A stretch of 51,369 nt of DNA, taken from Ilumatobacteraceae bacterium (GTDB taxonomy: Bacteria; Actinomycetota; Acidimicrobiia; Acidimicrobiales; Ilumatobacteraceae). Shown here one piece after another: positions 14,777-49,320 of the stretch. Position 1 is the first letter of the stretch, and the number at the start of each line of letters is the position of its first letter. The stretch spans positions 1 through 51,369 of the forward strand of contig JANMQX010000093.1 in the NCBI GenBank assembly GCA_031370745.1, written 5' to 3'. Both the position numbers and the translations under genes were made by a program. Under the pieces are notes generated by a model. The model ran no database searches, was not told the DNA's origin, and was given only the letters and a program-made list of their open reading frames with translations.

Positions 14777-14800
14777 GACGTTCAGGTGGCGACAAAGTTC
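14777..14800 (-). promoter_or_regulatory. Candidate ECF-type promoter (GAAC-N16-CGTC) upstream of the sigma gene
   Basis: Minus strand: GAAC (complement of 14797-14800), 16-nt spacer, CGTC (complement of 14777-14780). About 55 nt upstream of GTG 14722 and overlapping the kinase stop codon. Confidence 0.35.
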
Positions 14801-16512: not shown

Positions 16513-16586
16513 GTCCGCCCTCGAACGCTAGTGGCGCAGGGCTGAGGAAACCGGGCAATAGCACCGACCGCTGGTGAACGACCGCG

Positions 16587-22698: not shown

Positions 22699-22742
22699 TA
22701 CTATCGGGCCACGGAAGCGATCAGCACGTAGTGACGACAGCC

Positions 22743-25700
22743 ATGGACAACAGGGACGAACCGAGTCGACGACTTGACAGATGGGTTGTGCCGTCGCGCG
22801 CTACGGCGGTTCGGTACGGTCTCGTCGGCCTCGCGCTGATCCTCACGACGACGTTCGTGGAGATCGCCGTCCACGGTTTGGATGTCGAATCCTGGGGATC
22901 GATTTCGGGCAGCGCATTGCTACTGGTGCCTGCGTGGGCAGGCATGACGAACCTGGCCAGATATCGATCGGATGGCAGACGGGAGTGGCTGTACCTCGCG
23001 GTCGGTTCATTCGGTTGGGCCTTCGGACAATTGCTGTGGCTCGCCCAGATCACGTTGAACGGCTCGACGACATGGCCGTCGTTCTCCGACGTCGGCTACA
23101 TCGCGTGGCCGATCGCGGCGATCGGTGCGGTGGTGATCCACACCCGGCCGTTCGAGCGCTCGACGCGCGTCGTGTTCATGGTCGATGCGATGGTGCTGGC
23201 CGTTGCCCTCAGCTTCGTCGCGTGGGAACTGATCATTCGTACAGGGGTGGGAGATCCGGCGCGATTCTCCTTGCCGGCTCAGCTGGCGATGCTGATCTAC
23301 CCGCTCACCGACATCGCACTCGCCTCGATGCTCGGCCTGTTGCTGCTGATCGGCCGCTCGCCGGCGCGCGTGGGTCTGTTTGCTGGCGCGGTGTTGTTGA
23401 CCGTCGCCGATATCGCATATTCGGCATCAGTCGGAACGACGACCAACACGTCGTCGTTCGCCATTTCATGGCCGTGTTGGGTGCTCGCGTTCGCCGTGAT
23501 CGCAGTGACCGCCGGGCTGCCGAGTGGGGGAGTCGTGCGCTACAGCCGCCCGACGCTGTCCCGCCTCCTCGTCGTTCACGTGCCAGTGATGGCAGGCGTG
23601 TGGCTGGCGGCGTGGCGGTACATGTTGCACGAAAGCGCGGCGACCACGGTCACGATCGTGATTGGTGCGCTCGCCGGGCTGCTGATCATCATCGAGCAGT
23701 TGGCTACGTGGAACCACTCGACCGCCTTGTCGGATCGGCTCAGCGACAACATCACGAATCTTCGGCACACCGAGGCCGAACTCCGAGCACTGCTCGACGA
23801 CCTTCCTGATTCGGTGATCGAGCTCGATGGGCAAGGACGCATTGTCGAGGCCAACAAGCTGGTACTCGAGATCACAGGCCGCTCGCATTCCGAGGTGTTG
23901 AACAAGTCATTCGCCTCGTTGGTCAAGCCCGCAGATCGAGCCCTGTTGCTCGAGGTGTGGGAGAGGCTGCGGTCCGGATTGCCGGTCAACAGCCCTGTGT
24001 TCCCGTTCGATCACCCCGACGGTCGCGAGATCCTGCTCGAAGCCGATGTCCATGTGCCGATGCGTGATCCAGAACGCGTCGTCGTGACGCTGCGCGACAT
24101 CACCAGCCGCCTGCGCGAGGCGCACGACCTCGACCTGGCGCAAGCGCGATTCCGTGCGGCCTTCCACGGCGCCCCCACCGGGATGGCGTTGTCGAGCGCC
24201 ATCAACGGGACGCTGATCGATGTCAACGAATCACTGGCAACGATGCTCGGCTATACCCGTACCGATCTCGTCGGTCGGGGCATGCAGTCGATCACCCACC
24301 CCGACGATTGGCAGCGTGGTCCGACTCACATCGCCGGCATCGCGGCCGACTCGTACCACATGGAACAGAGATACATCCGCAACGACCAGAGCGTGATGTG
24401 GGCCCGCGCCTGGGTGTCGGTGATGGACGACGGCGACGGGCACAGCTTGGCCATCACTCACATCGAAGACATCACCGAGCAACGCCACAGCGCCGAGCGG
24501 CTCGAGTGGGCAGCCACACACGATGAGTTGACACGTCTGCCCAACAGGTTCCGCTTCCTCGACCAGCTCGCTCGGTTCCTGGAAACCAGCGAACCGGGCG
24601 CCGTCGCGGTGATGTTCATCGATCTCGACAACTTCAAGGTCATCAACGACAGTCTCGGACATGGCGTCGGTGACGAACTGCTGCGCGGCATGAGCGAACG
24701 CCTGCGCGCGGTCGTGCGCGACCGCGACATGCTGAGCCGGTTCGGTGGCGACGAGTTCATCGTCATGCTGTGCGACATCGGCGCCACCGTGTCGCCCGTC
24801 GAGATCGCCGAGCGTCTGCGCGCGGAAATCGCCCTGCCGCTGGTCGTCGACGGTGCAGAACTGTACGTGACAGCCAGCATCGGCATCGCCGTGGCGGACC
24901 GCCCTGGGGTCTCGACAACAGAGCTGCTGCGCGACGCAGATGCCGCGATGTATCGCGCCAAGGCTCGCGGCCGCGACTGTGTCGAGGTGTTCTCACCGGG
25001 CACACACGACGCCACCGTGCTGACGCTGCGCACCACCAACGAATTGCGCAGAGGTTTGGAACGCGGCGAGATCGTGCCGTACTACCAGCCCATCGTGCAG
25101 CTCGATTCCGGCCACCTCGTCGGCTTCGAGGTCCTGGCCCGTTGGCGACACCCTGATCGCGGCCTGCTGGGGCCTGATCAGTTCCTGCCGATGGCCGAAG
25201 AGACCGGGTTGATCGGCGAGGTCGGCGCGGCTGTGCTTCGCTCGTCGCTGTCGCAACTCGGTCAATGGCGAATCCGCCTGCCTCGCTTTGCCGATCTCAC
25301 CGTCTCGGTCAATGTCAGCGGACGTCAGCTGATGAGTTCGGTCTTCCATGGCATGGTTGCCGAGGCGCTGGCCGAGAGCGGCCTCACCGCTGACGCGCTG
25401 TGGCTGGAGATCACCGAATCGGCATTGATGAGCGACGTCAAAGCTGCCACGGTGGCGCTACGCGAGTTGCGCAACCTCGGCCTGCACCTCGCTGTCGACG
25501 ATTTCGGCACGGGCTACTCGTCGCTGACCTACCTGAAGCGGTTCCCTGTCGAGGCCATCAAGGTCGACCGGTCATTCGTCAGCGGCCTTGGTATAGATCC
25601 CGAAGACACAACGATCGTCGAGGCAGTCGTCAAGCTCGGCCATTCGCTCGGTTTGCTTGTCGTTGCCGAAGGGGTGGAGACGCCATTGCAGCTGGCGCGG

Positions 25701-25793
25701 CTGCGCGAGATCTGTTGCGACCACGGTCAGGGATACGTCTTTGGGCGGCCTCGACCCGCCGAGCTGGTGGAGTCGGAATACGCGCTCGCCTGA
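22743..25793 (+). CDS. Polytopic-membrane PAS-PAS-GGDEF-EAL protein
   Basis: About 330-aa N-terminal multi-TM region and two PAS-like segments. GGDEF has RDRD-MLSRF-GGDEF (I-site plus active site). EAL has EVLARW, VNVSGRQL, LEITES, DDFGTGYSSL, KVDRSF, EGVET and QGYVF. ATG 22743 chosen. Confidence 0.93.
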   Translation: MDNRDEPSRRLDRWVVPSRATAVRYGLVGLALILTTTFVEIAVHGLDVESWGSISGSALLLVPAWAGMTNLARYRSDGRREWLYLAVGSFGWAFGQLLWLAQITLNGSTTWPSFSDVGYIAWPIAAIGAVVIHTRPFERSTRVVFMVDAMVLAVALSFVAWELIIRTGVGDPARFSLPAQLAMLIYPLTDIALASMLGLLLLIGRSPARVGLFAGAVLLTVADIAYSASVGTTTNTSSFAISWPCWVLAFAVIAVTAGLPSGGVVRYSRPTLSRLLVVHVPVMAGVWLAAWRYMLHESAATTVTIVIGALAGLLIIIEQLATWNHSTALSDRLSDNITNLRHTEAELRALLDDLPDSVIELDGQGRIVEANKLVLEITGRSHSEVLNKSFASLVKPADRALLLEVWERLRSGLPVNSPVFPFDHPDGREILLEADVHVPMRDPERVVVTLRDITSRLREAHDLDLAQARFRAAFHGAPTGMALSSAINGTLIDVNESLATMLGYTRTDLVGRGMQSITHPDDWQRGPTHIAGIAADSYHMEQRYIRNDQSVMWARAWVSVMDDGDGHSLAITHIEDITEQRHSAERLEWAATHDELTRLPNRFRFLDQLARFLETSEPGAVAVMFIDLDNFKVINDSLGHGVGDELLRGMSERLRAVVRDRDMLSRFGGDEFIVMLCDIGATVSPVEIAERLRAEIALPLVVDGAELYVTASIGIAVADRPGVSTTELLRDADAAMYRAKARGRDCVEVFSPGTHDATVLTLRTTNELRRGLERGEIVPYYQPIVQLDSGHLVGFEVLARWRHPDRGLLGPDQFLPMAEETGLIGEVGAAVLRSSLSQLGQWRIRLPRFADLTVSVNVSGRQLMSSVFHGMVAEALAESGLTADALWLEITESALMSDVKAATVALRELRNLGLHLAVDDFGTGYSSLTYLKRFPVEAIKVDRSFVSGLGIDPEDTTIVEAVVKLGHSLGLLVVAEGVETPLQLARLREICCDHGQGYVFGRPRPAELVESEYALA

Positions 25794-36772: not shown

Positions 36773-37801
36773 ATGCTGAGAGCTGCCCTGCGCGACCTCC
36801 AATGGCGTTGGAAACGATTCGTCATCGCGATGGTCGGCGTCGCCCTGGTGTTCGCGATGGGTCTGATCATGACCGGTCTGTCGACGTCGTTCTCGACCGA
36901 AGTCGATCGGACGCTTGCCTCCATCGGCGCCGAGCGGTGGGCGGTTGCGTCGGATGCCTCCGGGCCGTTCAACTCCTTCAGCCCGATTCCGACCGCCGAG
37001 GCAGCAAACATCGGCGGATCGTCGGTCATGGTGCTCCGCGAGACGATTCAGGACGGGCCGACGGTTCGCGACATCATCGTGATGGGAGTGGAGCCGGGTG
37101 CTCTCGGCTCTCCGCACGCGTCGCGCGGTCAAGACCTGACCAGCTCCGGCCAAGTCGTGGTCGATCGCAGCCTTCCCGGTGCTTCGATCGGCGACACGAT
37201 CTCCTTCGGTGGTCAACACTTCGGGATCGTCGGGACGATTTCTGGGCAGAGTCTGTTTGCCGGCATCCCGCTGGTGTACATCCCGCTGGTGGACGTCCAA
37301 ACCATGGCCGTGGCGGGCCAGCCGCTTGCCACAGCGATGTTGTTTGCAAAGATCCCCACGTTCGTACCTGCTGAGTTGAAGGTGATGTCGAACCAGGATG
37401 TCAAAGACGACGTGTTGCGGCCGTTGAAGGCCGCTCGATCGTCGATCAGCTTCGTACGTCTGCTTTTGTGGCTGGTCGCGGCGATCGTCGTCGGATCCGT
37501 GCTGTACCTTCAGGCGCTCGAACGCAGTCGTGACTTCGCGGTCTTCAAGGCAACAGGTACATCGACAGCGGCGATCGGAGTCGGTCTTGCCGTACAGGCC
37601 GTGATGCTGTCGTTGGCCGCAGCAGTTTTGGCTGCAATACTCGCCACGGTTCTGGCACCGCTGTTCCCACTCAACGTCGAGATTCCGGCGAGTGGCTATC
37701 TGTTGTTGCCCGTGGTCACCGTCGTTGTCGGCCTCCTCGCCTGCTCGATTGCGCTTCGACGCACGGCACGTATTGACCCGGCTACCGCGTTCGGGGGATG
37801 A
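36773..37801 (+). CDS. FtsX/MacB-type ABC transporter permease
   Basis: MLRAALRDLQWRWKRFVIAMVGVALVFAMGLIM (TM1), about 200-aa periplasmic loop, then three C-terminal TMs ending ...IALRRTARIDPATAFGG. Confidence 0.85.
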   Translation: MLRAALRDLQWRWKRFVIAMVGVALVFAMGLIMTGLSTSFSTEVDRTLASIGAERWAVASDASGPFNSFSPIPTAEAANIGGSSVMVLRETIQDGPTVRDIIVMGVEPGALGSPHASRGQDLTSSGQVVVDRSLPGASIGDTISFGGQHFGIVGTISGQSLFAGIPLVYIPLVDVQTMAVAGQPLATAMLFAKIPTFVPAELKVMSNQDVKDDVLRPLKAARSSISFVRLLLWLVAAIVVGSVLYLQALERSRDFAVFKATGTSTAAIGVGLAVQAVMLSLAAAVLAAILATVLAPLFPLNVEIPASGYLLLPVVTVVVGLLACSIALRRTARIDPATAFGG

Positions 37802-37802
37802 G

Positions 37803-38792
37803 ATGACAGGAGCGGCGGCCGGGCTCGTCATCGAAAATCTGACGGTCGAGTTCACGAAAGGTGACTACACGGTTCGGCCGCTCGACGATTTCAGTTGCAA
37901 CGTGCATGCGGGCTCGTTGGCCCTCCTCCTCGGTCCTTCCGGTTGTGGCAAGACCACGTTGTTGTCGTGCCTGGGCGGCATCTTGAAACCGACCGCCGGC
38001 AAGATCTCGTATGGCGGCACCGAGGTCACCGCACTCACCGGTAAGGCGCTCACCTCGTACCGACAACGCGGGGTCGGTGTCGTGTTTCAAGCCTTCAACC
38101 TGGTTCCCAGTCTGAGCGCTGTCGAGAACGTCTCGGTGCCGATGCGCTCGGCTGGCGTCGGCCGACGCGAGGCGCGTGACAAGGCGGTGGCCTTGCTCGA
38201 GAGCGTCGGGTTGGGAGATCGCCTGACCCATCGCCCCAACGGCCTCAGTGGGGGGCAGCAGCAACGTGTCGCGATCGCTCGCGCGCTGGCCCTCGATCCT
38301 TCGCTGCTGCTGGCAGATGAGCCCACGGCGCACTTGGACTACATCCAGGTCGAGGGGATTCTTCGGCTCATCCGTGGCCTCACCGACGGCGGTCGCGTTG
38401 TCGTCGTTGCCACTCACGACGAACGACTGCTCGCGCTTGCGGATCAGATCATCGAGATGCGCCCGAACTTTATGCCCGACGTGGAGAACTCCCGCACCAT
38501 CCATCTCGATGCCGGGAAGAACCTGTTCGAACAGGGTGATCAAAGCGATCTGATCTATGTGGTGGACACCGGTGAACTGGAGGTGTTGCGCGAATCGCCC
38601 GAGGGTGAGGTGCGGCTCAGCATCATCCAGCCTGGCGAATACGTCGGTGAAATGGGTCCGCTGTTCGGTCTCGATCGTTCGGCGACCGTCCGCGCCCGTT
38701 TGGACTCGACGCTGACCGGTTACAGCGTCAAGGCCTTCAGGAACCTTGTCGGCGACGACAAAATTCCGTCAATCATCCGAGGTCGTCGCTGA
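37803..38792 (+). CDS. ABC transporter ATP-binding protein fused to a C-terminal cyclic-nucleotide-binding domain
   Basis: Walker A GPSGCGKTTLL, signature LSGGQQQRVAIARAL, Walker B LLLADEPTAHLD. Then a CAP_ED-like domain (nt 38487-38789): LFEQGDQSDLIYVVDTGELEVL...GEYVGEMGPLFGLDRSATVRA. ATG 37803 is 2 nt after the permease stop. Confidence 0.9.
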   Translation: MTGAAAGLVIENLTVEFTKGDYTVRPLDDFSCNVHAGSLALLLGPSGCGKTTLLSCLGGILKPTAGKISYGGTEVTALTGKALTSYRQRGVGVVFQAFNLVPSLSAVENVSVPMRSAGVGRREARDKAVALLESVGLGDRLTHRPNGLSGGQQQRVAIARALALDPSLLLADEPTAHLDYIQVEGILRLIRGLTDGGRVVVVATHDERLLALADQIIEMRPNFMPDVENSRTIHLDAGKNLFEQGDQSDLIYVVDTGELEVLRESPEGEVRLSIIQPGEYVGEMGPLFGLDRSATVRARLDSTLTGYSVKAFRNLVGDDKIPSIIRGRR

Positions 38793-41007: not shown

Positions 41008-41760
41008 TCAGGGAAGTGTCACGTATCCGCTGAGGAACGTGCGCGCCGAGCTTGTATCCAATCGATATACGACGTTGGTAGACCGGCATACTGCGTCGCC
41101 GGTGATCGTCGTGGCCGCGATGGTGGTGCTGTTACCGAGGAAGTTGGGCCCGCCCGAGTCGCCGTAGCAGGTGCCCCCGTCTCCGAGTGTCGCGTTCATC
41201 GAGATCCGCAACCAAGCCGGGTTGATGGAGTTGAGAGTTCCGACTGTTGTCATCCGCACGTCGTTGTATACATAGGTTTTTCCACCCGGACCGCTGGTGA
41301 CCAGGTAGGCCCCATATCCAACGGGGGTGAACGTCTGGCTGGATGACAGCTGCGACAATGTGTTCTGTTTGGGCAGCAACGCCGGTGTAATGCCCTTCAC
41401 CGCATGATCGAGCACCACGACGGCGATGTCGTGTGGGTCGCTCTGGGACTGCGAATACAGCGGATCGGCTCTGAACGTGCCGGAATACACCACGTCGCCC
41501 GCCTTGTAGGCAGTGTCGAAGGTGACTCGGACGCGTTCTGCCTCATTCCCGCAATGAGCAGCAGTGAGGAAAATTGTCGGAGAGATCAACGTGCCCGAGC
41601 AATAGAGCCAGGTTCCATCCGAATACTGGACCGTGTTGACCAATCCTCCGACGTTCGGGTGACCCTCGCCATCGGCAACTCCGTTCGTGATCGCGATGGC
41701 GGGCGCGGCGACCATCAGAACACTGACAACGGCGACCGCTGTCCACCGGATTCGTTTCAA
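41008..41760 (-). CDS. Secreted trypsin-like S1 serine peptidase
   Basis: Signal MKRIRWTAVAVVSVLMVAAPAIA then ITNG. Catalytic triad motifs are LTAAHC, DIAVVVL and GDSGGP. TTG 41760 has a perfect AGGAGG 7 nt upstream. Confidence 0.92.
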   Translation of the reverse strand: MKRIRWTAVAVVSVLMVAAPAIAITNGVADGEGHPNVGGLVNTVQYSDGTWLYCSGTLISPTIFLTAAHCGNEAERVRVTFDTAYKAGDVVYSGTFRADPLYSQSQSDPHDIAVVVLDHAVKGITPALLPKQNTLSQLSSSQTFTPVGYGAYLVTSGPGGKTYVYNDVRMTTVGTLNSINPAWLRISMNATLGDGGTCYGDSGGPNFLGNSTTIAATTITGDAVCRSTNVVYRLDTSSARTFLSGYVTLP

Positions 41761-41883: not shown

Positions 41884-44349
41884 TCAGAGGTCACCGGAGC
41901 GTTGCAACGCAACAAGCGCTCCCCAGCCTGGCAGCAGTGGGATCCAGAACGTCGCCAGGCGAAACAGGATGACGGCGGCGACTGCGGTGCTGCTGGTCAT
42001 TCCCGCTGAGGTCAATCCCGCGATCAGCGTCGCTTCCACGGCTCCGATCCCACCGGGGGTGGGAGCGACCGACGACACCACTGAGCCAACGAGGTAGACG
42101 AGAGCGACCGACGTGAACGCCGGGCCCGCTCCGAACGCGGACACGGCAACTTCCAACGCGAGGATGTACCCCAACGTGATGGCCAGCGAGCCGCCGAACA
42201 GTTCGATCATCTTGCCAGGCTGGTGAGCGATCTCGCTGACGTTGGCCAGCGAGCGCTTCGTTGCCGGCCACACGCGAGTAGTGAGCAATGCGCGGCTCCA
42301 TGGGACAGCCACACCGGTCGCTGCAACCAGCGCTACACCGGCGGCGATCAATCCGATCGTGCCCCACGAGGGCAGGTCGAAGGTCTTCAGCCCTGAGGAG
42401 CCGGCGAGGGCGATGAACAGGCCCGTCAAGGTGAGATGAACGATCACGCCGGCGATCGTGTCGACGCCCACGGCTGCGACAGCCGTCGTCGTGTCGATGC
42501 CGCGCTTCTGGAGGAATCGGGCGGTCAATGCCAGCCCGCCGCCGGGCGCGGCGACACCCACGAACGAGGTCGCCATCTGCACGCCGATGTTCGGGCCCAG
42601 TGGGAGATGCTCGGGCAGAGAGCCGGCGAGGGCCACGGCAGCGCCAACGTAGGTGAGGGCCGACAGAGCGAGGGCTGCGGCCGCCCACGACCAGTTGGCC
42701 CGCTGAAGCTCGCCCCATAGCGAGCCGAGGCCGAGGAATTGGGGAATGAGCGCCCACGCCGCCAGCGCCACCACAGCGATTGAGACAACCGTGCCCGTCG
42801 TGATCCTCTCCAGTTCGGCGATCGGGACGTTCTCGGCACCTGTCACGCGTTGGACCTCGGTGCGAAGGTCGTCGAGACACCCGGCAGCCTTGACGGCGGC
42901 TCGTGTCCTGTGAGTCAGCGCAAGCGGCTGCAAGCGGGGTAGGGCTGCTGCGACCGCAGCGGTGCCGACGCCGGCAACAGCGGATTCCACAGCGCGTTGA
43001 ACGCCGAGCGGCGCGGCTGTTGCTGCGAGCACCTCGGCAACATCGGTCGAGAGGGCAGAGCCGACGACGCCCAAGGAGGCTGAGGCGAAGCCGACGAGCA
43101 CGACGGCGCCTTCGTCGTCGACCCACAGGGCGTCGGCGTTGAGGCGGCGATGCACGGTGTGGCTCTGTTGGAGGGCGTTCACAATCGCCCAGACCGATTC
43201 CAAGAGTTGAGGCGTACGACGCGACGGATCGAGCTCGCTCAACGACTGCCGTGCATGAGCGTCGAACGCCATCATCATCGCGTTCGGGGGGAACTCGGCG
43301 ACCACCGCTAGGCGGGCAGTGGGAACACCGTCGGAGTGGGCTTTCAACGCGCAGAGGGCCTCGTGTTCGACCGCCGAACGAAGCGATCGGAACAGTCTGT
43401 CCTGGCCGACATCGCGGAATCGCGCCGCTCGGTACGTCTGCAAGGGGAGCAGCGCCGTCCACAGATCGCGATTGATGACCTTCACGATCAGCTGCTGGCC
43501 ATCGTCCATGTACACCTTGAATCCCGCGAAGCCGTGAAACCCTCCGAATCGTTCGACCGAGCAGACCCTGTAGCCCAGACGCTCGAGGATCTCGCCCACC
43601 GCCACGGCGCGCGGGCTTGTGTTGGGGGCTCCGCAGATCAGCTGCACAAGCGATGACGCGGCCGCTGCCATCGCAATGGCGGTCACGATCGTGGGCGGGT
43701 CCGCGAGACTGACGCCGAGCCGCGCAATGATCCCTAGGACAAGGACGACGCGACCGACCCGTCGCCAGCGTTCGGGCCAACGACCTCGGTCGACGAACAT
43801 CCAAGCGGCGATCACTCCCACGTCCAAAGTCGTCGGGAACGCGGCACCAATGCCGTATCCACTGAGGCCGTTGGCGCCCAGGCCCGAACCGGGCTGGGCG
43901 CTGTGCCGTGATGGCAGCAGAGGCAGCGCCGAGGTGCCGACAAGCTTCGACATCGTGATCAGGCCAGCGATGCAGACGACTGCGGCGAGCACCATTCGGC
44001 CGACCCGGACGAAGTGGCGGAGGACGAGTTGGCCGATGAACCCGAGAATCGCCGCAACGAGAAAGCCGAGTTGACAGATGCTGACGATGCCCGAAACAAG
44101 CCACCGCGGAGCTGAGCCGAGGAAGTCGCCGAAGTTGGTCGAAAACTGACTGACGTGGGCGCTTCGCAGCACAGCGTACGTGAAGCCGAGGACCACAAGC
44201 GACGCGACAAGTCTGATCGCGGTGACCGATGACCTCACATACGCCGGCTCAGCGGGCTCAGTCACCAAGAACGCTGGTCGCGCGGATGAGATGTCAAGCA
44301 TGGCGGATGAATTCTCGAGAAGGGATGCCTGATCGTAATCCGCGCCCAC
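41884..44349 (-). CDS. Polytopic membrane protein: N-terminal TMs, kinase-like (pseudokinase) module, C-terminal flippase-like (UPF0104/LPG_synthase_TM-type) domain
   Basis: 821 aa. Kinase-like aa ~255-430 (nt 43060-43587) has LIVKVINRD, EHEALCAL, HRRLNADAL (no catalytic Asp) and VGFASA in place of DFG. C-terminal ~300 aa are Gly/Ala-rich TMs ending ...PTPGGIGAVEATLIAGL...ILFRLATFWIPLLPGW, typical of the flippase-like family. Confidence 0.8.
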   Translation of the reverse strand: MGADYDQASLLENSSAMLDISSARPAFLVTEPAEPAYVRSSVTAIRLVASLVVLGFTYAVLRSAHVSQFSTNFGDFLGSAPRWLVSGIVSICQLGFLVAAILGFIGQLVLRHFVRVGRMVLAAVVCIAGLITMSKLVGTSALPLLPSRHSAQPGSGLGANGLSGYGIGAAFPTTLDVGVIAAWMFVDRGRWPERWRRVGRVVLVLGIIARLGVSLADPPTIVTAIAMAAAASSLVQLICGAPNTSPRAVAVGEILERLGYRVCSVERFGGFHGFAGFKVYMDDGQQLIVKVINRDLWTALLPLQTYRAARFRDVGQDRLFRSLRSAVEHEALCALKAHSDGVPTARLAVVAEFPPNAMMMAFDAHARQSLSELDPSRRTPQLLESVWAIVNALQQSHTVHRRLNADALWVDDEGAVVLVGFASASLGVVGSALSTDVAEVLAATAAPLGVQRAVESAVAGVGTAAVAAALPRLQPLALTHRTRAAVKAAGCLDDLRTEVQRVTGAENVPIAELERITTGTVVSIAVVALAAWALIPQFLGLGSLWGELQRANWSWAAAALALSALTYVGAAVALAGSLPEHLPLGPNIGVQMATSFVGVAAPGGGLALTARFLQKRGIDTTTAVAAVGVDTIAGVIVHLTLTGLFIALAGSSGLKTFDLPSWGTIGLIAAGVALVAATGVAVPWSRALLTTRVWPATKRSLANVSEIAHQPGKMIELFGGSLAITLGYILALEVAVSAFGAGPAFTSVALVYLVGSVVSSVAPTPGGIGAVEATLIAGLTSAGMTSSTAVAAVILFRLATFWIPLLPGWGALVALQRSGDL

Positions 44350-44530: not shown

Positions 44531-47452
44531 ATGAGCAGGCTTCGGCACGGTGGGTCAGGAGATGAGGTCGCGTCCGCATCGGTGGCGAGGACGGACCTGT
44601 CTCCCATCGGTCTGGTCGGCCTGCCCTTGTCCGGACAGATCACGTCGTGGAATCGAGCGCCGACGCGGCGCCGACGAGCGAGCGGCATCGGGGCGGTCGA
44701 ATGTTTGTCGGTCGACGGACACCAGATCGGTTCTCGTCATCCACGGCTGACCAGTCTGCTGATCGATGCAGCCGATCGCCGTGAGATCACTGTGACGTTC
44801 CAGCCGGTCGTCGAGCTGACCACCGGTCGGATCATCGAGTTCGAAGCCCTCGCTCGTTGGAACTCGAGCGAGATCAGCGATGCCGATCCGACAACGTTCA
44901 TCGAGGCCGCGGAGGATGCCGGCCTCATCCACGAACTCGGACACATCGTGCTCGGGCGAAGCCTCGACATCGTGCTGACCGAACGCCTGGCCGGGCGGTG
45001 GGGCGACGGGCGAGTGTCGGTCAAGCTCTCCGCAGTGCAGTTGACGCATCCAGACCTGCCGAGCCGCGTCCTCGAAGCGCTCTGCACGCGTTCGCTCCCA
45101 GGCAATGTGCTGCAGCTGGAGCTGACAGAGACACGTCTGCTCCCGGGCATAGCGTCTGCGGCCGCACGTCTGGCCGGACTTCGGACACAGGGAGTTCGCA
45201 TCGCCATCGACGACTTCGGAACCGGCTGCGCCAACATGTCGTACCTCTGCGACCTGCCCGTCGATGCGATCAAGGTCGACGGGCGGTTCATCGCAGAAAT
45301 GTGCACCTCCCGCGCCGACGCAGCCGTGATCCGCTCGATCGTTTCACTGGCCAGTGAGCTGCACCTCGACGTGATCGCTGAGGGCGTCGAGACCGCGGAG
45401 CAGCACCTGGCTCTGATTCGCCTGGGGTGCGTTGCAGCGCAGGGACTCCTGTACTCGGGGTATCGGGAGTCGTCTGATCTCTACCAGACCGTCGTCCTCC
45501 CTCATCGGCCGCCGACTGCCGGGGTGCCGTATCCGGCCGACGAAGCCACGAGAGTCGCCGCGCTGCACAGCGCCGACGTTCTCGACACGCCGGCGGAGGA
45601 GGTGTACGACTCGATCGTTCGGGCAGCGGCCGATCTCTGCGGTACGCCGATCTCGCTCATCAGCCTGATCGACGAGGACAGGCAGTGGTTCAAAGCCAAG
45701 GTCGGCCTCGAAGCCGAGCAGACCTCTCGAGATGTGGCGTTCTGCGCGCATGCGATCTGTTCCGACGAGCTCATGGAGGTCGGTGACGCGCAGGAGGACG
45801 ATCGGTTTTCCTCGAATCCATTGGTGGTCGACGATCCCAAGGTGCGGTTCTATGCGGGAGCCCCGCTTCGCGCTGCTGCCGGCTACAGCTATGGCACGCT
45901 CTGTGTGATCGACACGGTCCCTCGGTTGCTCACCTCACAGCAACGCGATGGCTTGTCTCGGTTGGCTCGCCAAGCGACAGTGCTACTCGAGCTTCGTCAG
46001 TCGATGAATGAACTGAGTCACGCGTACAGTGAGCTCGAGTTCGCCCATCGCCAGCGAGATGCCATTGAGGCAAAGTTGCGACGCCAGGCGCACTACGACG
46101 CGTTGACCGATCTCCCCAACCGGGCCCTGTTGATGGAACGGATCGAGGCAGCGCTGAGCGACAGCGCGGAGACCGGACGGCCTCTGGCCATGCTGATCTG
46201 CGACCTGGACGACTTCAAGCTCGTCAACGACGGGCTCGGCCACCCGGCCGGCGACCAACTCCTGGTGGAGGTCGCCCGTCGTCTTCGCAGCTGCGTCCGC
46301 GAAACCGACACAGTCGCACGATTCGGTGGAGACGAGTTCGTCGTTCTTGTCAACAATGCCGACCAACACACCATCGTCATGCTCGCCAACCGCATCCTCG
46401 ACCAGATGGCTGCCCCGATCTCGATCGGCGGTCGAGACGACATCAGATCATCCATCTCGATCGGTGTCGCCAGCCAGACGCCTGGAGTCGGCGGCGACGA
46501 CCTGCTCAGCAACGCCGATACCGCCATGTACCAGGCCAAGGCATTGGGCGGAGGACGGATGTGCCAGTACGACGCAACGTTGCGGGCCGACGTCTTCGAC
46601 CGGTTGACCATCGCTGCGGAACTGCGAGCCGCCGTGGTGAAAAATGAACTCTTCTGCCTCCACCAGCCCGAGATCGACCTGCTGACGGGTGAACTTTTCG
46701 GCTTGGAGTCATTGGCCCGATGGGACCACCCATCTCGAGGGATCATGCTGCCCGATCACTTCGTACCGATCCTCGAGTCGGCCAACGGAATCGGCGCGCT
46801 GTTCGAGCGGGTGCTGCAGCTCACGCTGGCGGCGCAATCCCGATGGGCCGCCGAGTTGGGCTGCTGGCCATCGGTTGCAATCAACCTGTCGGCCCGACAA
46901 CTCGACGACTCGAACCTGGCGAACACGGTTCGTGACGCACTGGCCCAGTTCTCGGCGCCGGCGGATTCGCTGTGGCTGGAGGTGACCGAGAGCGCCCTGA
47001 CTTCGACCTCATCGTTCGACACGCTCAACGAGATCCACCGGATTGGCGTCCACCTCGCCATCGACGACTTCGGAGTCGGATGGTCATCGATCGCGCGTCT
47101 GTCGTTGTTTCCCTGGGACCTGCTGAAGATCGATCGCAGCTTCATTGCACCGCTCGGCCAGGCCGACAATGCTCAGCACGTCGTCCAGGGGATCATTTCG
47201 CTGGCGCATTCACTCGGTATGCGTACGGTGGCAGAGGGGGTCGAGACCGTCGAGCAACTACGTCGTCTTCGCGACCTCGGATGTGACATCGTCCAGGGCT
47301 ACTTCATCGACTGGCCGTTGCATGCGACCGACGTGTTGCCACGGATGAGGCTGCTCAAACGAGGCGACCGGTCAACCGACGCGATCGGCTGGGACGCGTC
47401 GGCGATGTCCGCGATTCAAGGAGCCCGCAAAACATCCAATAACGCTTCTTGA
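44531..47452 (+). CDS. EAL-GAF-GGDEF-EAL multidomain c-di-GMP turnover protein
   Basis: EAL1: EFEALARW, ELTE, DDFGTGCANMSYL, KVDGRF, EGVETAEQ. GAF: DSIVRAAADLCGTPISLISLIDEDRQWFKAKVG...FYAGAPL. GGDEF: RETD-TVARF-GGDEF. EAL2: LESLARW, INLSARQL, LEVTES, DDFGVGWSSI, KIDRSF, EGVET, QGYF. Start uncertain: ATG 44531 or TTG 44705. Confidence 0.9.
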   Translation: MSRLRHGGSGDEVASASVARTDLSPIGLVGLPLSGQITSWNRAPTRRRRASGIGAVECLSVDGHQIGSRHPRLTSLLIDAADRREITVTFQPVVELTTGRIIEFEALARWNSSEISDADPTTFIEAAEDAGLIHELGHIVLGRSLDIVLTERLAGRWGDGRVSVKLSAVQLTHPDLPSRVLEALCTRSLPGNVLQLELTETRLLPGIASAAARLAGLRTQGVRIAIDDFGTGCANMSYLCDLPVDAIKVDGRFIAEMCTSRADAAVIRSIVSLASELHLDVIAEGVETAEQHLALIRLGCVAAQGLLYSGYRESSDLYQTVVLPHRPPTAGVPYPADEATRVAALHSADVLDTPAEEVYDSIVRAAADLCGTPISLISLIDEDRQWFKAKVGLEAEQTSRDVAFCAHAICSDELMEVGDAQEDDRFSSNPLVVDDPKVRFYAGAPLRAAAGYSYGTLCVIDTVPRLLTSQQRDGLSRLARQATVLLELRQSMNELSHAYSELEFAHRQRDAIEAKLRRQAHYDALTDLPNRALLMERIEAALSDSAETGRPLAMLICDLDDFKLVNDGLGHPAGDQLLVEVARRLRSCVRETDTVARFGGDEFVVLVNNADQHTIVMLANRILDQMAAPISIGGRDDIRSSISIGVASQTPGVGGDDLLSNADTAMYQAKALGGGRMCQYDATLRADVFDRLTIAAELRAAVVKNELFCLHQPEIDLLTGELFGLESLARWDHPSRGIMLPDHFVPILESANGIGALFERVLQLTLAAQSRWAAELGCWPSVAINLSARQLDDSNLANTVRDALAQFSAPADSLWLEVTESALTSTSSFDTLNEIHRIGVHLAIDDFGVGWSSIARLSLFPWDLLKIDRSFIAPLGQADNAQHVVQGIISLAHSLGMRTVAEGVETVEQLRRLRDLGCDIVQGYFIDWPLHATDVLPRMRLLKRGDRSTDAIGWDASAMSAIQGARKTSNNAS

Positions 47453-49320
47453 GAGTGAACGCCGACCAGCCGATACACGTGCGCGAGATGGTTTCGTACC
47501 GTCGAGCGACTGATGTAGAGCGCGGCAGAGATCGAGGCCACGCGTTGACCCCGAAGAAGTCGTTCCACGATGTCACGCTGCCGTGCCGTGAGGTCGAGCC
47601 CATCGAACGTTGTGCTAAGGCTGCGATCGGGCCTGGATGCGACCGTCATCTCGACGTCCGCGGCATCGACTTCGGATCCGATGCGCCTGATGTGGCGTTC
47701 GAGTTTGGCGATCTTGTCGACCATCGACCGCGTGCCGATACTCGCTGACAACACGAAGGCAAAAGTGTTGCGCTCGACGACGGGAGACTCGGTGCTCGAA
47801 GGTCCGACAGGCCGCCGTTTGATCGTGAACAGTTGACATTGGCACAGCACCCAGCCCAGCTCGGAATGGGGGAGTCGAACCGCGCCGGCCGCGCTGCCGT
47901 TGCGCCTGAGCGATTCCAGCATCGCGTCGACGATGTCGACGTCGTCAGGGTGACCTGCCAGCCTGAGGGAAACGCTGAGCGCACCGCTCAGTTCGGTCTC
48001 CATGGACGAGATGGCAGTGGAGACACTCGTGACCGCACCGTTCAGATCGATCGCTCCTGCGACGAGAGCCGTTGCGAACGGATCGTCGGACCCTCGCCCT
48101 GCCGTGGCTTCGATGTCGGCGGGGACCGTCAGGACGACCGCCAACGCACCGGACGAGACGAGCAGCCGACGTACGGAGGTCAGCACCGCAAGGGGTCCAT
48201 CTGCAGTCATCAGGGTTCGTTGAGCGCGGTACGAATCGGTCGCACCCGAACACAACGCCATCAGGGCCTTGTCGGTCTTGCGCAGATCGATGGGATCGGA
48301 AAGGGCTCGAGCGTGCAGCGGGCCCGGCTCCAGCGTCGCCAGTCCGAACAACGCTCGTGCGGCCTCGTTCGCAGATTGGAGATCTCCGTCCGGAAGGCTG
48401 TACACCACGAGCGGCGGGTGCAGCGCTTCGTTCTCGGCTGTCGCATCTTTGTCGGACGTGGTGCCGCAGGAAAGCGTCTGGCACCCCTCCTGAGACAGCG
48501 GCGCTGGTTCCCCGCCGAAGTCATACAACAATGAGTCGAGCGTTGAGAATTGATCACTCGAGACCACATCGACATCAATATTCGAACGAATTTCGGAGGG
48601 TCCCACGAGATACGTCGCCTCCAAGGCTTCCGAAATCTGCCCGCGCAGGAACTCACCACCCTGAGCGTCGGCGACTCCGGCGAACAGCATCAACTGATTC
48701 GTCGACGGACGGATTATCACATCGTCGGCGCGAGTGAGGCGGAGCACTCGGGCAACCGCGTGCACAACGAGGTCATCGCGGGTTCGGCGCCCATGACGCG
48801 ACTCGATCTCGGCCAGATCGGACAAGGTGATCGTCACGACAGCCAATGAACCGTTGTGAGACTGGGCGTCAGCAAGCATGCGCGCCAAACCCGGCACGGC
48901 CGCCGGTGTGGTCGCCAACAAGGTCACGGGGTCGTTCCCGTGGTCGAGTGCGCGCACGCGTCCAATGGCAAGTCGTGCGGTGATGTTCGTGTGCGTCAGC
49001 ACTGCTCCCGACATGAGCTCACCGAGCGACGTCGCCTCCAACGCAAACCACTCGTCTTCCGTCGACGAATGACACGGGTACTCGAACTCGAACCGCGGTC
49101 GATCACCAAGCAGGACGTCACGAATTCCCGCAGCAACGACGGCGGCGTCACAACGCTCGCAGACATCCAGGTAGTTGACTCCGCAGCCGACCGCCGAGTC
49201 GGCACACTCACGAGCACTGGCCGCTGCTCGCCATGCCGCATTGGTGAGGATGATCGTCCCGTCACGATCGACCACCACGATCATGTCGAGACTCTGATCG
49301 AGAACAGCCACCGCAGCCAT
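47416..49320 (-). CDS. PAS / degenerate-GGDEF / PAS-PAS / LuxR-HTH transcriptional regulator
   Basis: N-terminal PAS (IVVVDRDGTIILTNAAW...GVNYLDVCE...EWFALEAT), GGDEF-fold with STNQL in place of GGDEF, C-terminal LTARQRDIVERLLRGQRVASISAALYISRSTVRNHLAHVYRLVGV. Overlaps the upstream gene's 3' end by 37 nt, convergent. Confidence 0.85.
   Translation of the reverse strand: MAAVAVLDQSLDMIVVVDRDGTIILTNAAWRAAASARECADSAVGCGVNYLDVCERCDAAVVAAGIRDVLLGDRPRFEFEYPCHSSTEDEWFALEATSLGELMSGAVLTHTNITARLAIGRVRALDHGNDPVTLLATTPAAVPGLARMLADAQSHNGSLAVVTITLSDLAEIESRHGRRTRDDLVVHAVARVLRLTRADDVIIRPSTNQLMLFAGVADAQGGEFLRGQISEALEATYLVGPSEIRSNIDVDVVSSDQFSTLDSLLYDFGGEPAPLSQEGCQTLSCGTTSDKDATAENEALHPPLVVYSLPDGDLQSANEAARALFGLATLEPGPLHARALSDPIDLRKTDKALMALCSGATDSYRAQRTLMTADGPLAVLTSVRRLLVSSGALAVVLTVPADIEATAGRGSDDPFATALVAGAIDLNGAVTSVSTAISSMETELSGALSVSLRLAGHPDDVDIVDAMLESLRRNGSAAGAVRLPHSELGWVLCQCQLFTIKRRPVGPSSTESPVVERNTFAFVLSASIGTRSMVDKIAKLERHIRRIGSEVDAADVEMTVASRPDRSLSTTFDGLDLTARQRDIVERLLRGQRVASISAALYISRSTVRNHLAHVYRLVGVHSQEALLDVLRAP

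What the first reader, a model, noticed from the sequence alone, without database searches (positions are those of the whole stretch)
41884..44349. Flippase-like membrane domain fused to a pseudokinase module
The 821-aa protein has N-terminal TMs, a cytoplasmic protein-kinase-like module and a C-terminal UPF0104/MprF-flippase-like polytopic domain. The kinase-like module keeps a beta3-type Lys (LIVKVI) and an HR. motif but reads HRRLNADAL, so the catalytic Asp is replaced (nt 43144-43152), and VGFASA replaces DFG. The logic parallels the mycobacterial MurJ(MviN)-pseudokinase fusion, where a lipid flippase is regulated through a phospho-dependent pseudokinase scaffold. Here a different flippase fold carries the module, and murJ is missing from its usual place in this window. 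This may be a regulated lipid or lipid-linked-precursor translocase of unknown substrate.
Basis: partly seen in the sequence, partly recalled or inferred. Interest (0 to 1): 0.68.

Follow-up and report, generated by a model that had tools for sequence, protein, structure and literature searches.

The report
Dead phosphatase–dead kinase–lipid flippase fusion
This gene encodes a membrane protein that joins a lipid-flippase-like domain to two enzyme-derived domains, a lipid phosphatase and a small kinase, that have both lost their catalytic residues; it is a degenerate member of a large, uncharacterised actinobacterial family whose other members keep those enzymes intact.

Summary
A real 805–821-aa gene lies on the minus strand at 41884–44349. 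Its C-terminal domain is a PF03706/UPF0104 (PplT, MprF-flippase-like) domain. Its middle domain has a protein-kinase fold that keeps the β3 Lys but reads HRR for HRD, Ala for the catalytic Asn and VGF for DFG.

- **The N-terminal TMs are a degenerate PAP2 lipid-phosphatase domain.** Both catalytic His residues are gone.
- **The protein belongs to a large family.** It has about 2,000 clusters at 50% identity, in Acidimicrobiia, Geodermatophilaceae and Thermoleophilia. The family consensus is canonical (AHRDLRLxN…DFG), some members keep full PAP2 motifs, and catalytic residues were lost at least 12 times.
- **The kinase is a small Bud32/RIO-like type with no activation loop.** It is not a Hanks-type module like that of MviN.

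A kinase–PplT fusion in Actinobacteria is already catalogued in a 2022 preprint. The gene neighbourhood of orthologues is not conserved, and no FHA-domain gene or kinase gene lies next to it. The MurJ–pseudokinase parallel is therefore only an analogy.

Most likely this is a PplT-type lipid translocator carrying two non-catalytic, still strongly conserved ligand-binding or regulatory domains. The substrate is unknown. I class it as a new variant of a known kind, of moderate interest.

The parts
41884..44349 (-). Whole ORF: 821 aa from GTG at 44349, stop codon included. The probable real start is the ATG at 44301, giving 805 aa.
   Evidence: ORF list and translation. The database copy P0001 is 805 aa, and most homologues align from M17. 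Coordinates checked.
43627..44235 (-). N-terminal six-helix PAP2-derived membrane domain, catalytically degenerate (residues 23-225 in 805-aa numbering).
   Evidence: hhalign of the target clade's N-terminus against 15 stand-alone PAP2 proteins (seven checked with Pfam and PF01569-positive, the rest assigned by BLASTP): probability 97.7%, E 2e-12. With the family-wide N-terminus: 99.7%, E 1.4e-26. Homologues P0216 and P0224 hit Pfam PAP2 above its cut-off at the same position. The Foldseek top hit of the domain model is B. subtilis PAP2 PgpB 5jki, probability 0.91, TM 0.49/0.54, although E is only 0.5.
43828..43839 (-). FPTT, in the place of the PAP2 C2 motif PSGH. The catalytic His column holds Asp.
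   Evidence: Family alignment against members that keep FPSGH. Coordinates.
43690..43725 (-). ARLGVSLADPPT, in the place of the PAP2 C3 motif (S/A)R-x5-H-x3-D. Arg is kept, His is replaced by Ala and Asp by Thr.
42832..43584 (-). Cytoplasmic protein-kinase-fold domain, Bud32/RIO-like and catalytically degenerate, i.e. a pseudokinase (residues 240-490).
   Evidence: AF2 and Foldseek, profile against PDB sequences, family Pfam hits to Pkinase/APH/Kdo/RIO1.
43480..43482 (-). Retained beta3 Lys (LIVKVI). It is paired with a retained alphaC Glu in VEHEAL.
   Evidence: Invariant in the 26 clade members. K in 56 of 75 family representatives and E314 in 73 of 75.
43144..43152 (-). HRR, in the place of HRD. 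The catalytic Asp is replaced by Arg. The downstream loop reads LNADAL, so the catalytic Asn is replaced by Ala.
   Evidence: Register fixed by the PDB kinase alignments and by the family consensus AHRDLRLxN. Coordinates.
43078..43095 (-). VGFASA, in the place of xDFGxx. The metal-binding Asp is replaced by Gly.
   Evidence: This column holds G/E/D/A/Q within the clade.
42907..42945 (-). Family-specific invariant motif ALPRLQPLALTxR at the end of the kinase C-lobe. Its role is unknown; it could be an interface with the membrane domains.
   Evidence: R456, Q458, P459, L460, A461, T466 and R467 are invariant in the clade. The family consensus also reads LQPLALSxxTR.
41926..42789 (-). C-terminal PplT / LPG_synthase_TM (UPF0104, MprF-flippase-like) polytopic domain, including the hallmark APTPGGIGAVEA motif.
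   Evidence: Pfam PF03706, E 1.2e-35. TIGR00374. Foldseek hit to MprF 9j8s_A. It is the most conserved domain, with 66% mean pairwise identity.

Best explanation
SHOWN: The gene encodes a three-domain inner-membrane protein.
1. A six-helix PAP2-type lipid-phosphatase domain that has lost both catalytic histidines.
2. A cytoplasmic, compact Bud32/RIO-like kinase-fold domain. It keeps the ATP-anchoring Lys-Glu pair and the structural His (of HRD) and alphaF Asp, but has lost the catalytic Asp, the catalytic Asn and the DFG Asp.
3. An intact PplT/UPF0104 domain, the fold that translocates lipid in MprF.

It belongs to a large family with the architecture PAP2 - kinase - PplT. The ancestral state of that family had canonical kinase motifs, and some members still have a complete PAP2 active site. 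This clade is a doubly 'dead' offshoot.

INFERRED: The protein acts through its PplT domain as a translocator or scramblase for a phosphate-bearing membrane lipid, either a phospholipid or a polyprenyl-phosphate-type lipid. The two ex-enzyme domains no longer perform chemistry but persist as binding or regulatory modules. The pseudokinase would act as a cytoplasmic nucleotide- or partner-binding switch attached directly to the first PplT helix. The PAP2 remnant would act as an outer-leaflet head-group-binding or purely structural partner. Any phosphatase or kinase chemistry that is needed would be supplied in trans, for example by canonical paralogues, which also occur in Ilumatobacteraceae.
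For: Domain identities:
- PplT.
- Kinase fold.
- PAP2.

Loss of catalytic residues, set against a canonical family background:
- Among 75 representatives the HRD Asp is present in 47, the catalytic Asn in 49, the DFG Asp in 56 and the beta3 Lys in 56. All four are present in 33.
- Both PAP2 His residues are present in 8. The target reads K-R-A-G at the four kinase positions and has no PAP2 His.
- An NJ tree with Fitch parsimony gives an intact ancestor and at least 12-13 independent losses.

The dead kinase domain is still under strong constraint. Mean pairwise identity in the clade is 61%, against 66% for PplT and 46% for the PAP2 remnant, and 39 columns are invariant.

The PAP2-PplT link recurs:
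- 15 of 80 canonical loci have a stand-alone PAP2 gene next door.
- E. coli PplT (YbhN) interacts with PgpB, a PAP2 enzyme, in two-hybrid assays (preprint 10.1101/2022.03.11.483950).

A canonical paralogue clade (Pfam PF00069 plus PF03706) exists in Ilumatobacteraceae, including the cultured Ilumatobacter nonamiensis.
Against: - No experiment exists for any member of this family. Lipid translocation by stand-alone PplT proteins is itself only inferred from MprF.
- The substrate is unknown.
- Nucleotide binding by the pseudokinase was not tested.
- Co-occurrence of the dead clade and canonical paralogues in one genome was not shown. The contig-length matching found no shared contig.
- The PAP2 remnant is the least conserved part and may be only a structural anchor.
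- Structural support for PAP2 is weak on its own (Foldseek E 0.5). The case rests mainly on the profile-profile comparison and the family alignment.
- The relative domain arrangement in the AF2 model is uncertain (pTM 0.49).
Confidence: 0.6

Rival explanations
1. The protein is an MviN-like device in which a Ser/Thr kinase phosphorylates the pseudokinase, which then recruits an FHA-domain regulator to control the attached flippase. It might even stand in for the lipid II flippase MurJ, which is absent from its usual origin-proximal slot.
For: The flippase-like plus pseudokinase architecture is real. The mviN-syntenic slot in the window holds no MurJ. An active membrane STPK is encoded at 14782-16512.
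Against: - The kinase module is Bud32/RIO-like, has no activation loop, and derives from a catalytically canonical family. It is unrelated to the ActPs3/MviN type (PMC12599244).
- Domain order is reversed relative to MviN.
- Four orthologue neighbourhoods differ from one another and from the window, and none contains an FHA-domain or STPK gene.
- The PplT fold is unrelated to the MOP/MurJ fold.
- The gene is not near cell-wall genes.
- The family is confined to some Actinomycetota and occurs in several copies per genome (L018 and L050 come from one MAG). That pattern is atypical for an essential lipid II flippase.
- Whether murJ lies elsewhere in this genome cannot be seen from a 51-kb contig.
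Confidence: 0.08
2. The kinase-like domain is still an enzyme that uses a non-canonical mechanism, for example ATPase, AMPylation or phosphotransfer with relocated residues. Precedents are WNK, CASK, SelO and Bud32 itself. It would act on a lipid head group or on the protein itself.
For: The beta3 Lys and alphaC Glu are invariant in the clade, as are His384 and Asp420. The domain is as conserved as the transporter domain. An acidic residue (D/E) follows at HRRLNxD in 23 of 26 clade members (read).
Against: Three of the five core catalytic residues are lost at once. The DFG-Asp column varies within the clade (G/E/D/A/Q) and the HRD-Asp column alternates between R and H. That pattern fits relaxed catalytic constraint rather than a new fixed active site. 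The acidic residue aligns with the ordinary Glu of HRDLKPEN, so it is not a relocated catalytic residue.
Confidence: 0.12
3. The protein is a membrane-lipid sensor rather than a transporter. The PplT and PAP2-like membrane domains would bind a lipid and pass the signal to a cytoplasmic partner through the pseudokinase. That partner might feed into the c-di-GMP enzymes encoded nearby.
For: The PplT preprint raises 'membrane-linked signal transduction' as a possibility for the kinase fusions. A GGDEF-EAL gene lies directly next to the gene in the window (44531-47452, divergent) and in the orthologue locus L084 (convergent).
Against: GGDEF/EAL genes are very abundant here, with three in this window alone. 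They are not adjacent in L081, L082 or L085. The PplT domain is the most conserved part and keeps the family hallmark motif.
Confidence: 0.15
4. The N-terminal and middle parts are decaying relics with no function, so the protein is effectively a stand-alone PplT with dead baggage.
For: Catalytic residues of both enzyme domains are lost. The PAP2 remnant is the least conserved part.
Against: The full-length architecture is kept across more than 100 orthologues down to 49% identity. The kinase-like domain has 61% mean identity and 39 invariant columns. The AF2 models are confident for both domains.
Confidence: 0.04

Closest known systems
Protein kinase - PplT fusions of Actinobacteria (catalogued in the PplT preprint, bioRxiv 10.1101/2022.03.11.483950)
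   Same: Same order of kinase-like domain then PplT/LPG_synthase_TM domain, in the same phylum. The target is homologous to such proteins over its whole length, at about 30-35% identity.
   Different: The preprint lists the architecture only. It gives no function, does not mention the N-terminal PAP2 domain, and does not mention catalytic degeneration. The target has lost the kinase D/N/D residues and the PAP2 histidines.
MprF flippase domain / YbhN (UPF0104, PF03706)
   Same: The C-terminal domain matches the whole Pfam model (2-302 of 302) and the MprF structure 9j8s_A.
   Different: There is no aminoacyl-PG synthase domain: NF033480 scores 61 bits against a cut-off of 600 and covers only the flippase part. 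Two further domains lie upstream.
M. tuberculosis MviN (MurJ fused to an ActPs3 pseudokinase, regulated by PknB and FhaA)
   Same: Both are polytopic lipid-translocator-type domains covalently joined to a catalytically dead kinase-fold domain in an actinobacterium.
   Different: - The transporter fold differs (MOP versus PplT).
- Domain order is opposite.
- The kinase class differs: MviN is Hanks-type with its ATP pocket filled by aromatic residues (PMC12599244), whereas this one is Bud32/RIO-like with Lys-Glu kept.
- No FHA link is seen.
- The gene is not in the syntenic mviN slot.
Membrane PAP2 lipid phosphatases (PgpB, BcrC, LpxE)
   Same: The N-terminal six-helix domain is homologous (hhalign E 2e-12 to 1e-26). 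Its best structural match is B. subtilis PgpB 5jki.
   Different: The C1 Lys and Arg and the His residues of C2 and C3 are all replaced, and no Pfam PAP2 hit is found on the target itself.
Bud32/PRPK and RIO atypical kinases
   Same: They are the best structural matches of the middle domain (7szc_C TM 0.63; RIO2 4gyi and 6zxg_z). They share small size, an insertion between beta3 and alphaC, and the lack of an activation loop. JGI names some homologues 'Bud32'.
   Different: This domain is membrane-tethered between two polytopic domains and its catalytic residues are lost. It has no link to KEOPS or ribosome biogenesis.

Membership tests
PplT / LPG_synthase_TM (PF03706, UPF0104) | Match to the family HMM above the curated cut-off, over the full model | tested here: met
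   123.8 bits against a cut-off of 33.4, model positions 2-302 of 302, residues 521-808. TIGR00374 scores 47.7 against 43.2.
PplT / LPG_synthase_TM (PF03706, UPF0104) | MprF-flippase-like fold | tested here: met
   Foldseek hit to P. aeruginosa MprF 9j8s_A: E 6.5e-4, 322 columns, 18% identity.
PplT / LPG_synthase_TM (PF03706, UPF0104) | Lipid translocation activity | not testable with these tools
   Needs reconstitution or genetics.
Bifunctional MprF (aminoacyl-PG synthase plus flippase) | C-terminal aminoacyl-phosphatidylglycerol synthase domain, and the equivalog HMM above its cut-off | tested here: not met
   NF033480 scores 61 bits against a cut-off of 600 and aligns only to model positions 8-295, the flippase part. 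The protein ends with the PplT domain.
Protein-kinase-like superfamily | Bilobal kinase fold | tested here: met
   Almost all of the top 50 Foldseek hits are kinases (probability 1.00; PRPK TM 0.63, PknB, RIO2, COQ8A, CDKs). About 50 PDB kinases align in one register with the sequence profile. The homologous family hits Pfam Pkinase in 20 of 20 cases. Pfam finds no hit on the target itself.
Active protein kinase | beta3 Lys and alphaC Glu | tested here: met
   K274 and E312/E314 (805-aa numbering) are invariant in the clade.
Active protein kinase | Catalytic Asp (HRD), catalytic-loop Asn and metal-binding Asp (DFG) | tested here: not met
   R386, A391 and G404 lie at columns where the family consensus has D, N and D.
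Pseudokinase (operational definition: kinase fold lacking at least one of the VAIK Lys, HRD Asp or DFG Asp) | Kinase fold with loss of the HRD Asp and the DFG Asp | tested here: met
   Actual absence of catalytic activity is not testable here.
PAP2 lipid phosphatase (PF01569) | Homology to the PAP2 six-helix domain | tested here: met
   hhalign probability 97.7% with E 2e-12 for the clade, and 99.7% with E 1.4e-26 for the family, against PAP2 proteins (seven Pfam-confirmed). Homologues P0216 and P0224 pass the Pfam cut-off at the same position. 5jki is the top Foldseek hit, but with E 0.5. There is no direct Pfam hit on the target.
PAP2 lipid phosphatase (PF01569) | Catalytic motifs C1 KxxxxxxRP, C2 PSGH and C3 SRxxxxxHxxxD | tested here: not met
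   The target reads S..Q.P / T-L-D / R..A..T at the K,R,P / S,G,H / R,H,D columns. Both His residues are lost.
MviN-type flippase-pseudokinase (MurJ plus ActPs3, FhaA-regulated) | MurJ/MOP transporter domain | tested here: not met
   The only transporter-type domain is PF03706, and no MurJ hit is found.
MviN-type flippase-pseudokinase (MurJ plus ActPs3, FhaA-regulated) | Hanks-type pseudokinase C-terminal to the transporter, in the origin-proximal syntenic position | tested here: not met
   The kinase-like domain lies N-terminal to the transporter and is Bud32/RIO-like. The syntenic slot at 14782-17504 holds an STPK and DegV. The gene lies about 25 kb away, and its orthologues sit in unrelated contexts.
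MviN-type flippase-pseudokinase (MurJ plus ActPs3, FhaA-regulated) | Phospho-threonine-dependent binding of an FHA-domain protein | not testable with these tools
   No FHA-domain gene appears in the five neighbourhoods inspected. Phosphorylation cannot be assessed.

The most novel reading that the evidence does not exclude
The ~800-aa PAP2 - kinase - PplT family may be a self-contained lipid-phosphate cycling machine. An outer-leaflet phosphatase, a translocator and a cytoplasmic small-molecule (lipid) kinase would sit on one polypeptide, for instance to recycle polyprenyl (undecaprenyl/decaprenyl) phosphate or to remodel a phospholipid head group. The doubly dead clade found here would then be a non-catalytic paralogue that partners with, or regulates, the active versions, much as pseudokinase-kinase pairs do. 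If so, the fused enzymes would point to the long-sought substrate class of PplT/UPF0104 translocators.
Probability: 0.15. Interest if true: 0.8.

Novelty: new variant of a known kind. Interest (0 to 1): 0.5.

Why it matters
Bacterial phospholipid and carrier-lipid flippases are still poorly defined. The widespread PplT/UPF0104 domain has only one demonstrated role, inside MprF. A large family in which PplT is fused to a lipid-phosphate phosphatase and a small kinase points to a phosphate-bearing lipid as cargo, and adjacent stand-alone PAP2 genes recur in that family. Culturable hosts such as Geodermatophilus, Blastococcus, Modestobacter and Ilumatobacter make this testable.

The family is also a clear natural case of repeated, independent conversion of enzymes into pseudoenzymes. 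The kinase lost its catalytic residues at least 12 times, and the PAP2 domain has lost them in most lineages. This gene is the extreme case, with both enzymes dead and both still conserved. For this particular gene the pay-off is modest until a function is known for any family member.

Tried and rejected
- **Pfam on the isolated middle and N-terminal regions** at E<=10 found nothing. Remote methods were needed.
I re-ran it with 20 canonical members. That scan therefore samples only HRD/DFG-bearing relatives and says nothing about the distribution of the dead clade.
- **Conserved gene neighbours.** All-against-all clustering of ORFs in 80 related loci found only stand-alone PAP2 genes as recurrent neighbours, apart from antisense-ORF artefacts. 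For the target's own orthologues, the four contexts examined share nothing.
- **Co-occurrence of dead and canonical paralogues.** I matched contig lengths between the two hit lists and found no shared large contig. The result is inconclusive, not negative.
- **Stand-alone PAP2 gene in the window.** tblastn gave a best E of 0.11, so there is none.
- **Regulatory RNA, promoter and terminator scans** around the gene found nothing.
- **Known bacterial pseudokinase families** (ActPs1-3, GLW, CP1, DYD, DLHK; PMC12599244). None fits, because this one keeps the beta3 Lys, lacks the large insertions, and is linked to PplT.
- **Short-chain dehydrogenase hits** in the PDB profile search (E 0.12-0.2, profile positions 397-510) were judged to be chance.
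- **The D/E in HRRLNxD as a relocated catalytic residue.** Rejected, because it aligns with the ordinary Glu of HRDLKPEN.
Full report
**1. What is at the coordinates**

The interval 41884-44349 is an open reading frame on the minus strand, 821 codons from a GTG. The copy of this protein in the protein database is 805 aa and starts at the ATG at 44301. Most homologues align from that Met. The gene is real: 221 proteins match at E<=1e-5. The best 120 are full-length (about 800 aa) proteins from Ilumatobacteraceae and Acidimicrobiales metagenome-assembled genomes, at 49-87% identity.

The window itself is the chromosomal origin region of an acidimicrobial actinobacterium. It carries recF, dnaN, dnaA, yidC, jag, parA, parB, trxB, an ECF sigma factor, a DUF6049 (Rv3909-like) gene, a pcnA-like gene and dnaB.

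**2. The three domains**

*C-terminal domain.* Pfam PF03706 LPG_synthase_TM covers residues 521-808 over the entire model, with E 1.2e-35 and 123.8 bits against a cut-off of 33.4. TIGR00374 'flippase-like domain' also passes its cut-off. The bifunctional-MprF equivalog scores only 61 bits against 600 and matches only its flippase part. The AlphaFold2 model built from 26 homologues (mean pLDDT 77) matches P. aeruginosa MprF 9j8s_A. This is the domain that a 2022 preprint named PplT.

*Middle domain.* Pfam finds nothing here, even at E<=10. Three independent lines show a protein-kinase fold.
- A profile of the 26 homologues hits about 50 PDB protein kinases at E 0.014-0.4. All hits fall on the same stretch and in the same register: '...tvHRRLnadallvddeGevvvveFaaaslG' against 'iVHRDLKPENLLLDehlnvkIaDFGls'.
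- Foldseek with the model returns almost only kinases among its top 50 hits, at probability 1.00. The best is human PRPK/Bud32 7szc_C, with TM-score 0.63 normalised on the target. PknB, RIO2, COQ8A and CDKs also appear.
- A profile of the middle domain alone finds 2,056 cluster representatives (50%-identity clusters) at E<=1e-3, most about 800 aa with the domain at the same position. Twenty of 20 of the canonical relatives tested hit Pfam Pkinase, 18 hit APH and 12 hit Kdo.

The domain is compact. Only about 16 residues separate the DFG position from the invariant alphaF Asp (D420). It therefore has no activation loop or APE motif, like Bud32, RIO and the small-molecule kinases.

- In the family alignment, several relatives carry complete PAP2 motifs at the corresponding positions: K-x6-RP, FPSGH and (A/G)R-x5-H-x3-D. 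P0216 and P0224 pass the Pfam PAP2 cut-off there, with the architecture PAP2 - Pkinase - LPG_synthase_TM.
- Profile-profile comparison of the target clade's N-terminus with 15 stand-alone PAP2 proteins (seven of them confirmed with Pfam, the rest assigned by BLASTP) gives probability 97.7% and E 2e-12. With the family-wide N-terminus it gives 99.7% and E 1.4e-26.
- A separate AF2 model of the domain (pLDDT 82, pTM 0.80) has B. subtilis PAP2 PgpB 5jki as its top Foldseek hit (probability 0.91, TM 0.49/0.54). PgpB 5jwy, LpxE and G6PC1 appear further down. The E-value is only 0.5, so this is supporting evidence and not decisive.

**3. Both enzyme domains are catalytically degenerate here, but not in the family**

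The table gives counts among 75 full-length representatives.

| Kinase position | Canonical residue present | Target residue |
|---|---|---|
| beta3 Lys | 56 of 75 | K |
| HRD Asp | 47 of 75 | R |
| Catalytic Asn | 49 of 75 | A |
| DFG Asp | 56 of 75 | G |

- All four residues are present in 33 representatives, and the consensus is 'AHRDLRLxN ... IDFGFAELAA'.
- Coordinates on the window are K at 43480-43482, HRR at 43144-43152 and VGFASA at 43078-43095.
- Both PAP2 catalytic histidines are present in only 8 of 75. The target has FPTT for PSGH and ARLGVSLADPPT for the C3 motif.
- A neighbour-joining tree with Fitch parsimony places an intact kinase at the root and needs 12-13 independent losses. 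The PAP2-intact members group together near the midpoint root.
- The loss is not decay. Within the target clade the kinase-like domain is nearly as conserved as the transporter domain, with mean pairwise identity 0.61 against 0.66 and 39 invariant columns. The PAP2 remnant is looser, at 0.46.
- Retained residues include the Lys-Glu pair, the structural His of HRD (75 of 75), the alphaF Asp (74 of 75) and a family-specific 'LQPLALxxxTR' motif.

**4. Context**

- Orthologue neighbourhoods at 65-79% identity differ from each other and from the window. None has an FHA-domain protein or a Ser/Thr kinase next to the gene.
- In the window the gene is followed by a trypsin-like protease and an amine oxidase, and faces a GAF-GGDEF-EAL gene. 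Only the GGDEF-EAL adjacency recurs, once, in L084.
- For the canonical relatives, the only recurrent neighbour in 80 loci is a stand-alone PAP2 gene, present in 15 loci.
- The canonical clade occurs in Acidimicrobiia (including Ilumatobacteraceae and the cultured Ilumatobacter nonamiensis), Geodermatophilaceae and Thermoleophilia. There are 489 confirmed loci among the GTDB species representatives, and one MAG carries two copies.
- I could not show that the dead clade and canonical copies coexist in one genome.

**5. The MurJ argument**

The window is syntenic with the M. tuberculosis origin region. I take the M. tuberculosis gene order (Rv3909, mviN, sigM, trxB, cwlM, parB, parA) from established knowledge. 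Where M. tuberculosis has mviN, this window has a DegV gene (16587-17504) and a 576-aa active Ser/Thr kinase with a TM helix and an extracellular domain (14782-16512; HRDVKPGN, DFG). Every ORF of 400 aa or more is either assigned to a non-MurJ Pfam family or overlaps such a gene.

It does not bear on the PplT gene, for four reasons:
- The gene lies 25 kb away.
- Its orthologues are at unrelated loci.
- The transporter fold is different.
- The rest of the genome is unseen.

**6. Comparison with what is known**

- The preprint on PplT proteins states that protein-kinase domains fused N-terminally to PplT occur in several Actinobacteria and are among the most prevalent PplT architectures. It also reports that E. 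coli PplT interacts with PgpA, PgpB and PgpC. It mentions neither a PAP2 domain nor catalytic degeneration.
- A 2025 review of bacterial pseudokinase families (ActPs1-3, GLW, CP1, DYD, DLHK) contains no family linked to a flippase-like or PAP2 domain, and none fits this motif pattern.
- Full-text searches found nothing else on this architecture.

The protein is thus a member of PF03706, a homologue of PAP2 and of the kinase superfamily that fails the catalytic criteria of both. It resembles MviN only as an analogy.

**7. Mechanism**

*Shown.* The protein is tripartite and its topology is consistent with the domain functions. The PAP2 motif-bearing loops face outward, as in other membrane PAP2 enzymes. 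The kinase-like domain lies after the sixth helix, in the cytoplasm, and is followed directly by the PplT helices. The enzymes are dead but conserved, and the transporter is intact.

*Inferred.* The protein most likely works through PplT as a translocator of a phosphate-bearing lipid, with the pseudokinase as a nucleotide- or partner-binding regulatory module and the PAP2 remnant as a head-group-binding or structural module. Chemistry would be supplied in trans if needed. I put about 0.6 on this overall, with more than 0.9 on the anatomy and about 0.4 on the transport-plus-regulation mechanism.

*Rivals.* They are a lipid sensor (0.15), a non-canonical enzyme (0.12), MviN-like phospho/FHA control or MurJ replacement (0.08), and functionless relics (0.04).

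*Most novel reading not excluded.* The family as a whole may be a one-polypeptide lipid-phosphate cycle (phosphatase outside, flippase, kinase inside), with this clade as its non-catalytic partner (probability about 0.15).

**8. Verdict**

This is a new variant (doubly degenerate) of a catalogued but uncharacterised architecture. Interest is moderate (0.5). The family-level finding of PAP2 - kinase - PplT with repeated pseudo-enzymisation is more interesting than this single gene.

Noticed in passing
window 14782-17504 (-): M. tuberculosis has mviN (MurJ plus pseudokinase) between the Rv3909-like gene and sigM. At that position this window has a DegV-family gene (16587-17504) and a 576-aa apparently active Ser/Thr kinase (VAVK, HRDVKPGN, DFG, SPE). 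The kinase has a Pro/Thr-rich linker, one TM helix and an extracellular domain of about 170 aa. There is no MurJ domain here.
   Followed up: partly
related loci L004, L008, L012, L014, L029, L048-L052, L057, L063, L065, L070, L071: A stand-alone PAP2 phosphatase gene lies directly next to the canonical kinase-PplT gene in 15 of 80 loci (seven confirmed with Pfam, the rest assigned by BLASTP). In these loci the fused N-terminal PAP2 domain of the kinase-PplT protein lacks the PSGH motif wherever it was examined. This suggests the phosphatase function was moved to a separate gene.
   Followed up: partly
proteins P0122 (1978 aa), P0125 (1923 aa), P0141 (1586 aa), P0170 (1557 aa): These giant relatives contain two kinase-like stretches plus repeated PAP2 and PplT domains. 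For example, P0141 reads PplT - PAP2 - kinase - PAP2 - kinase - ... They look like tandem fusions of the whole unit.
   Followed up: partly
window 43390-43470 (-), residues about 278-306 in 805-aa numbering: An Arg-rich insertion between beta3 and alphaC (…YRAARFRDVGQDRLFRSLR…) has several invariant residues (Y290, R294, R296, F304, R308) but very low pLDDT. It is conserved family-wide and could be a membrane- or phosphate-binding segment.
   Followed up: no
window 22671-25793 (+), 44531-47452 (+), 47416-49320 (-): Three c-di-GMP-type genes lie in 51 kb: PAS-PAS-GGDEF-EAL (1040 aa), a 973-aa protein with GAF-GGDEF-EAL plus a second N-terminal EAL-like stretch, and a PAS - weak GGDEF - LuxR-HTH protein (634 aa). 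The second lies divergently next to the gene under study.
   Followed up: no
window 37692-38792 (+): An ABC-transporter ATPase is fused to a C-terminal cyclic-nucleotide-binding domain (366 aa).
   Followed up: no
window 41008-41760 (-): A trypsin-like serine protease gene lies 124 nt downstream of the gene on the same strand. It is not found next to the four orthologues examined.
   Followed up: partly
window 19859-21292 (+): A histone-deacetylase-family protein has an N-terminal extension of about 150 aa that no Pfam family matches. Its end overlaps the start of the pcnA-like gene (21268-22698).
   Followed up: no
locus L085/L086 13881-14753: In one orthologue context, a BacA undecaprenyl-diphosphatase gene lies 3.5 kb downstream of the dead PAP2-kinase-PplT gene. 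This is a single case and may be coincidence.
   Followed up: no
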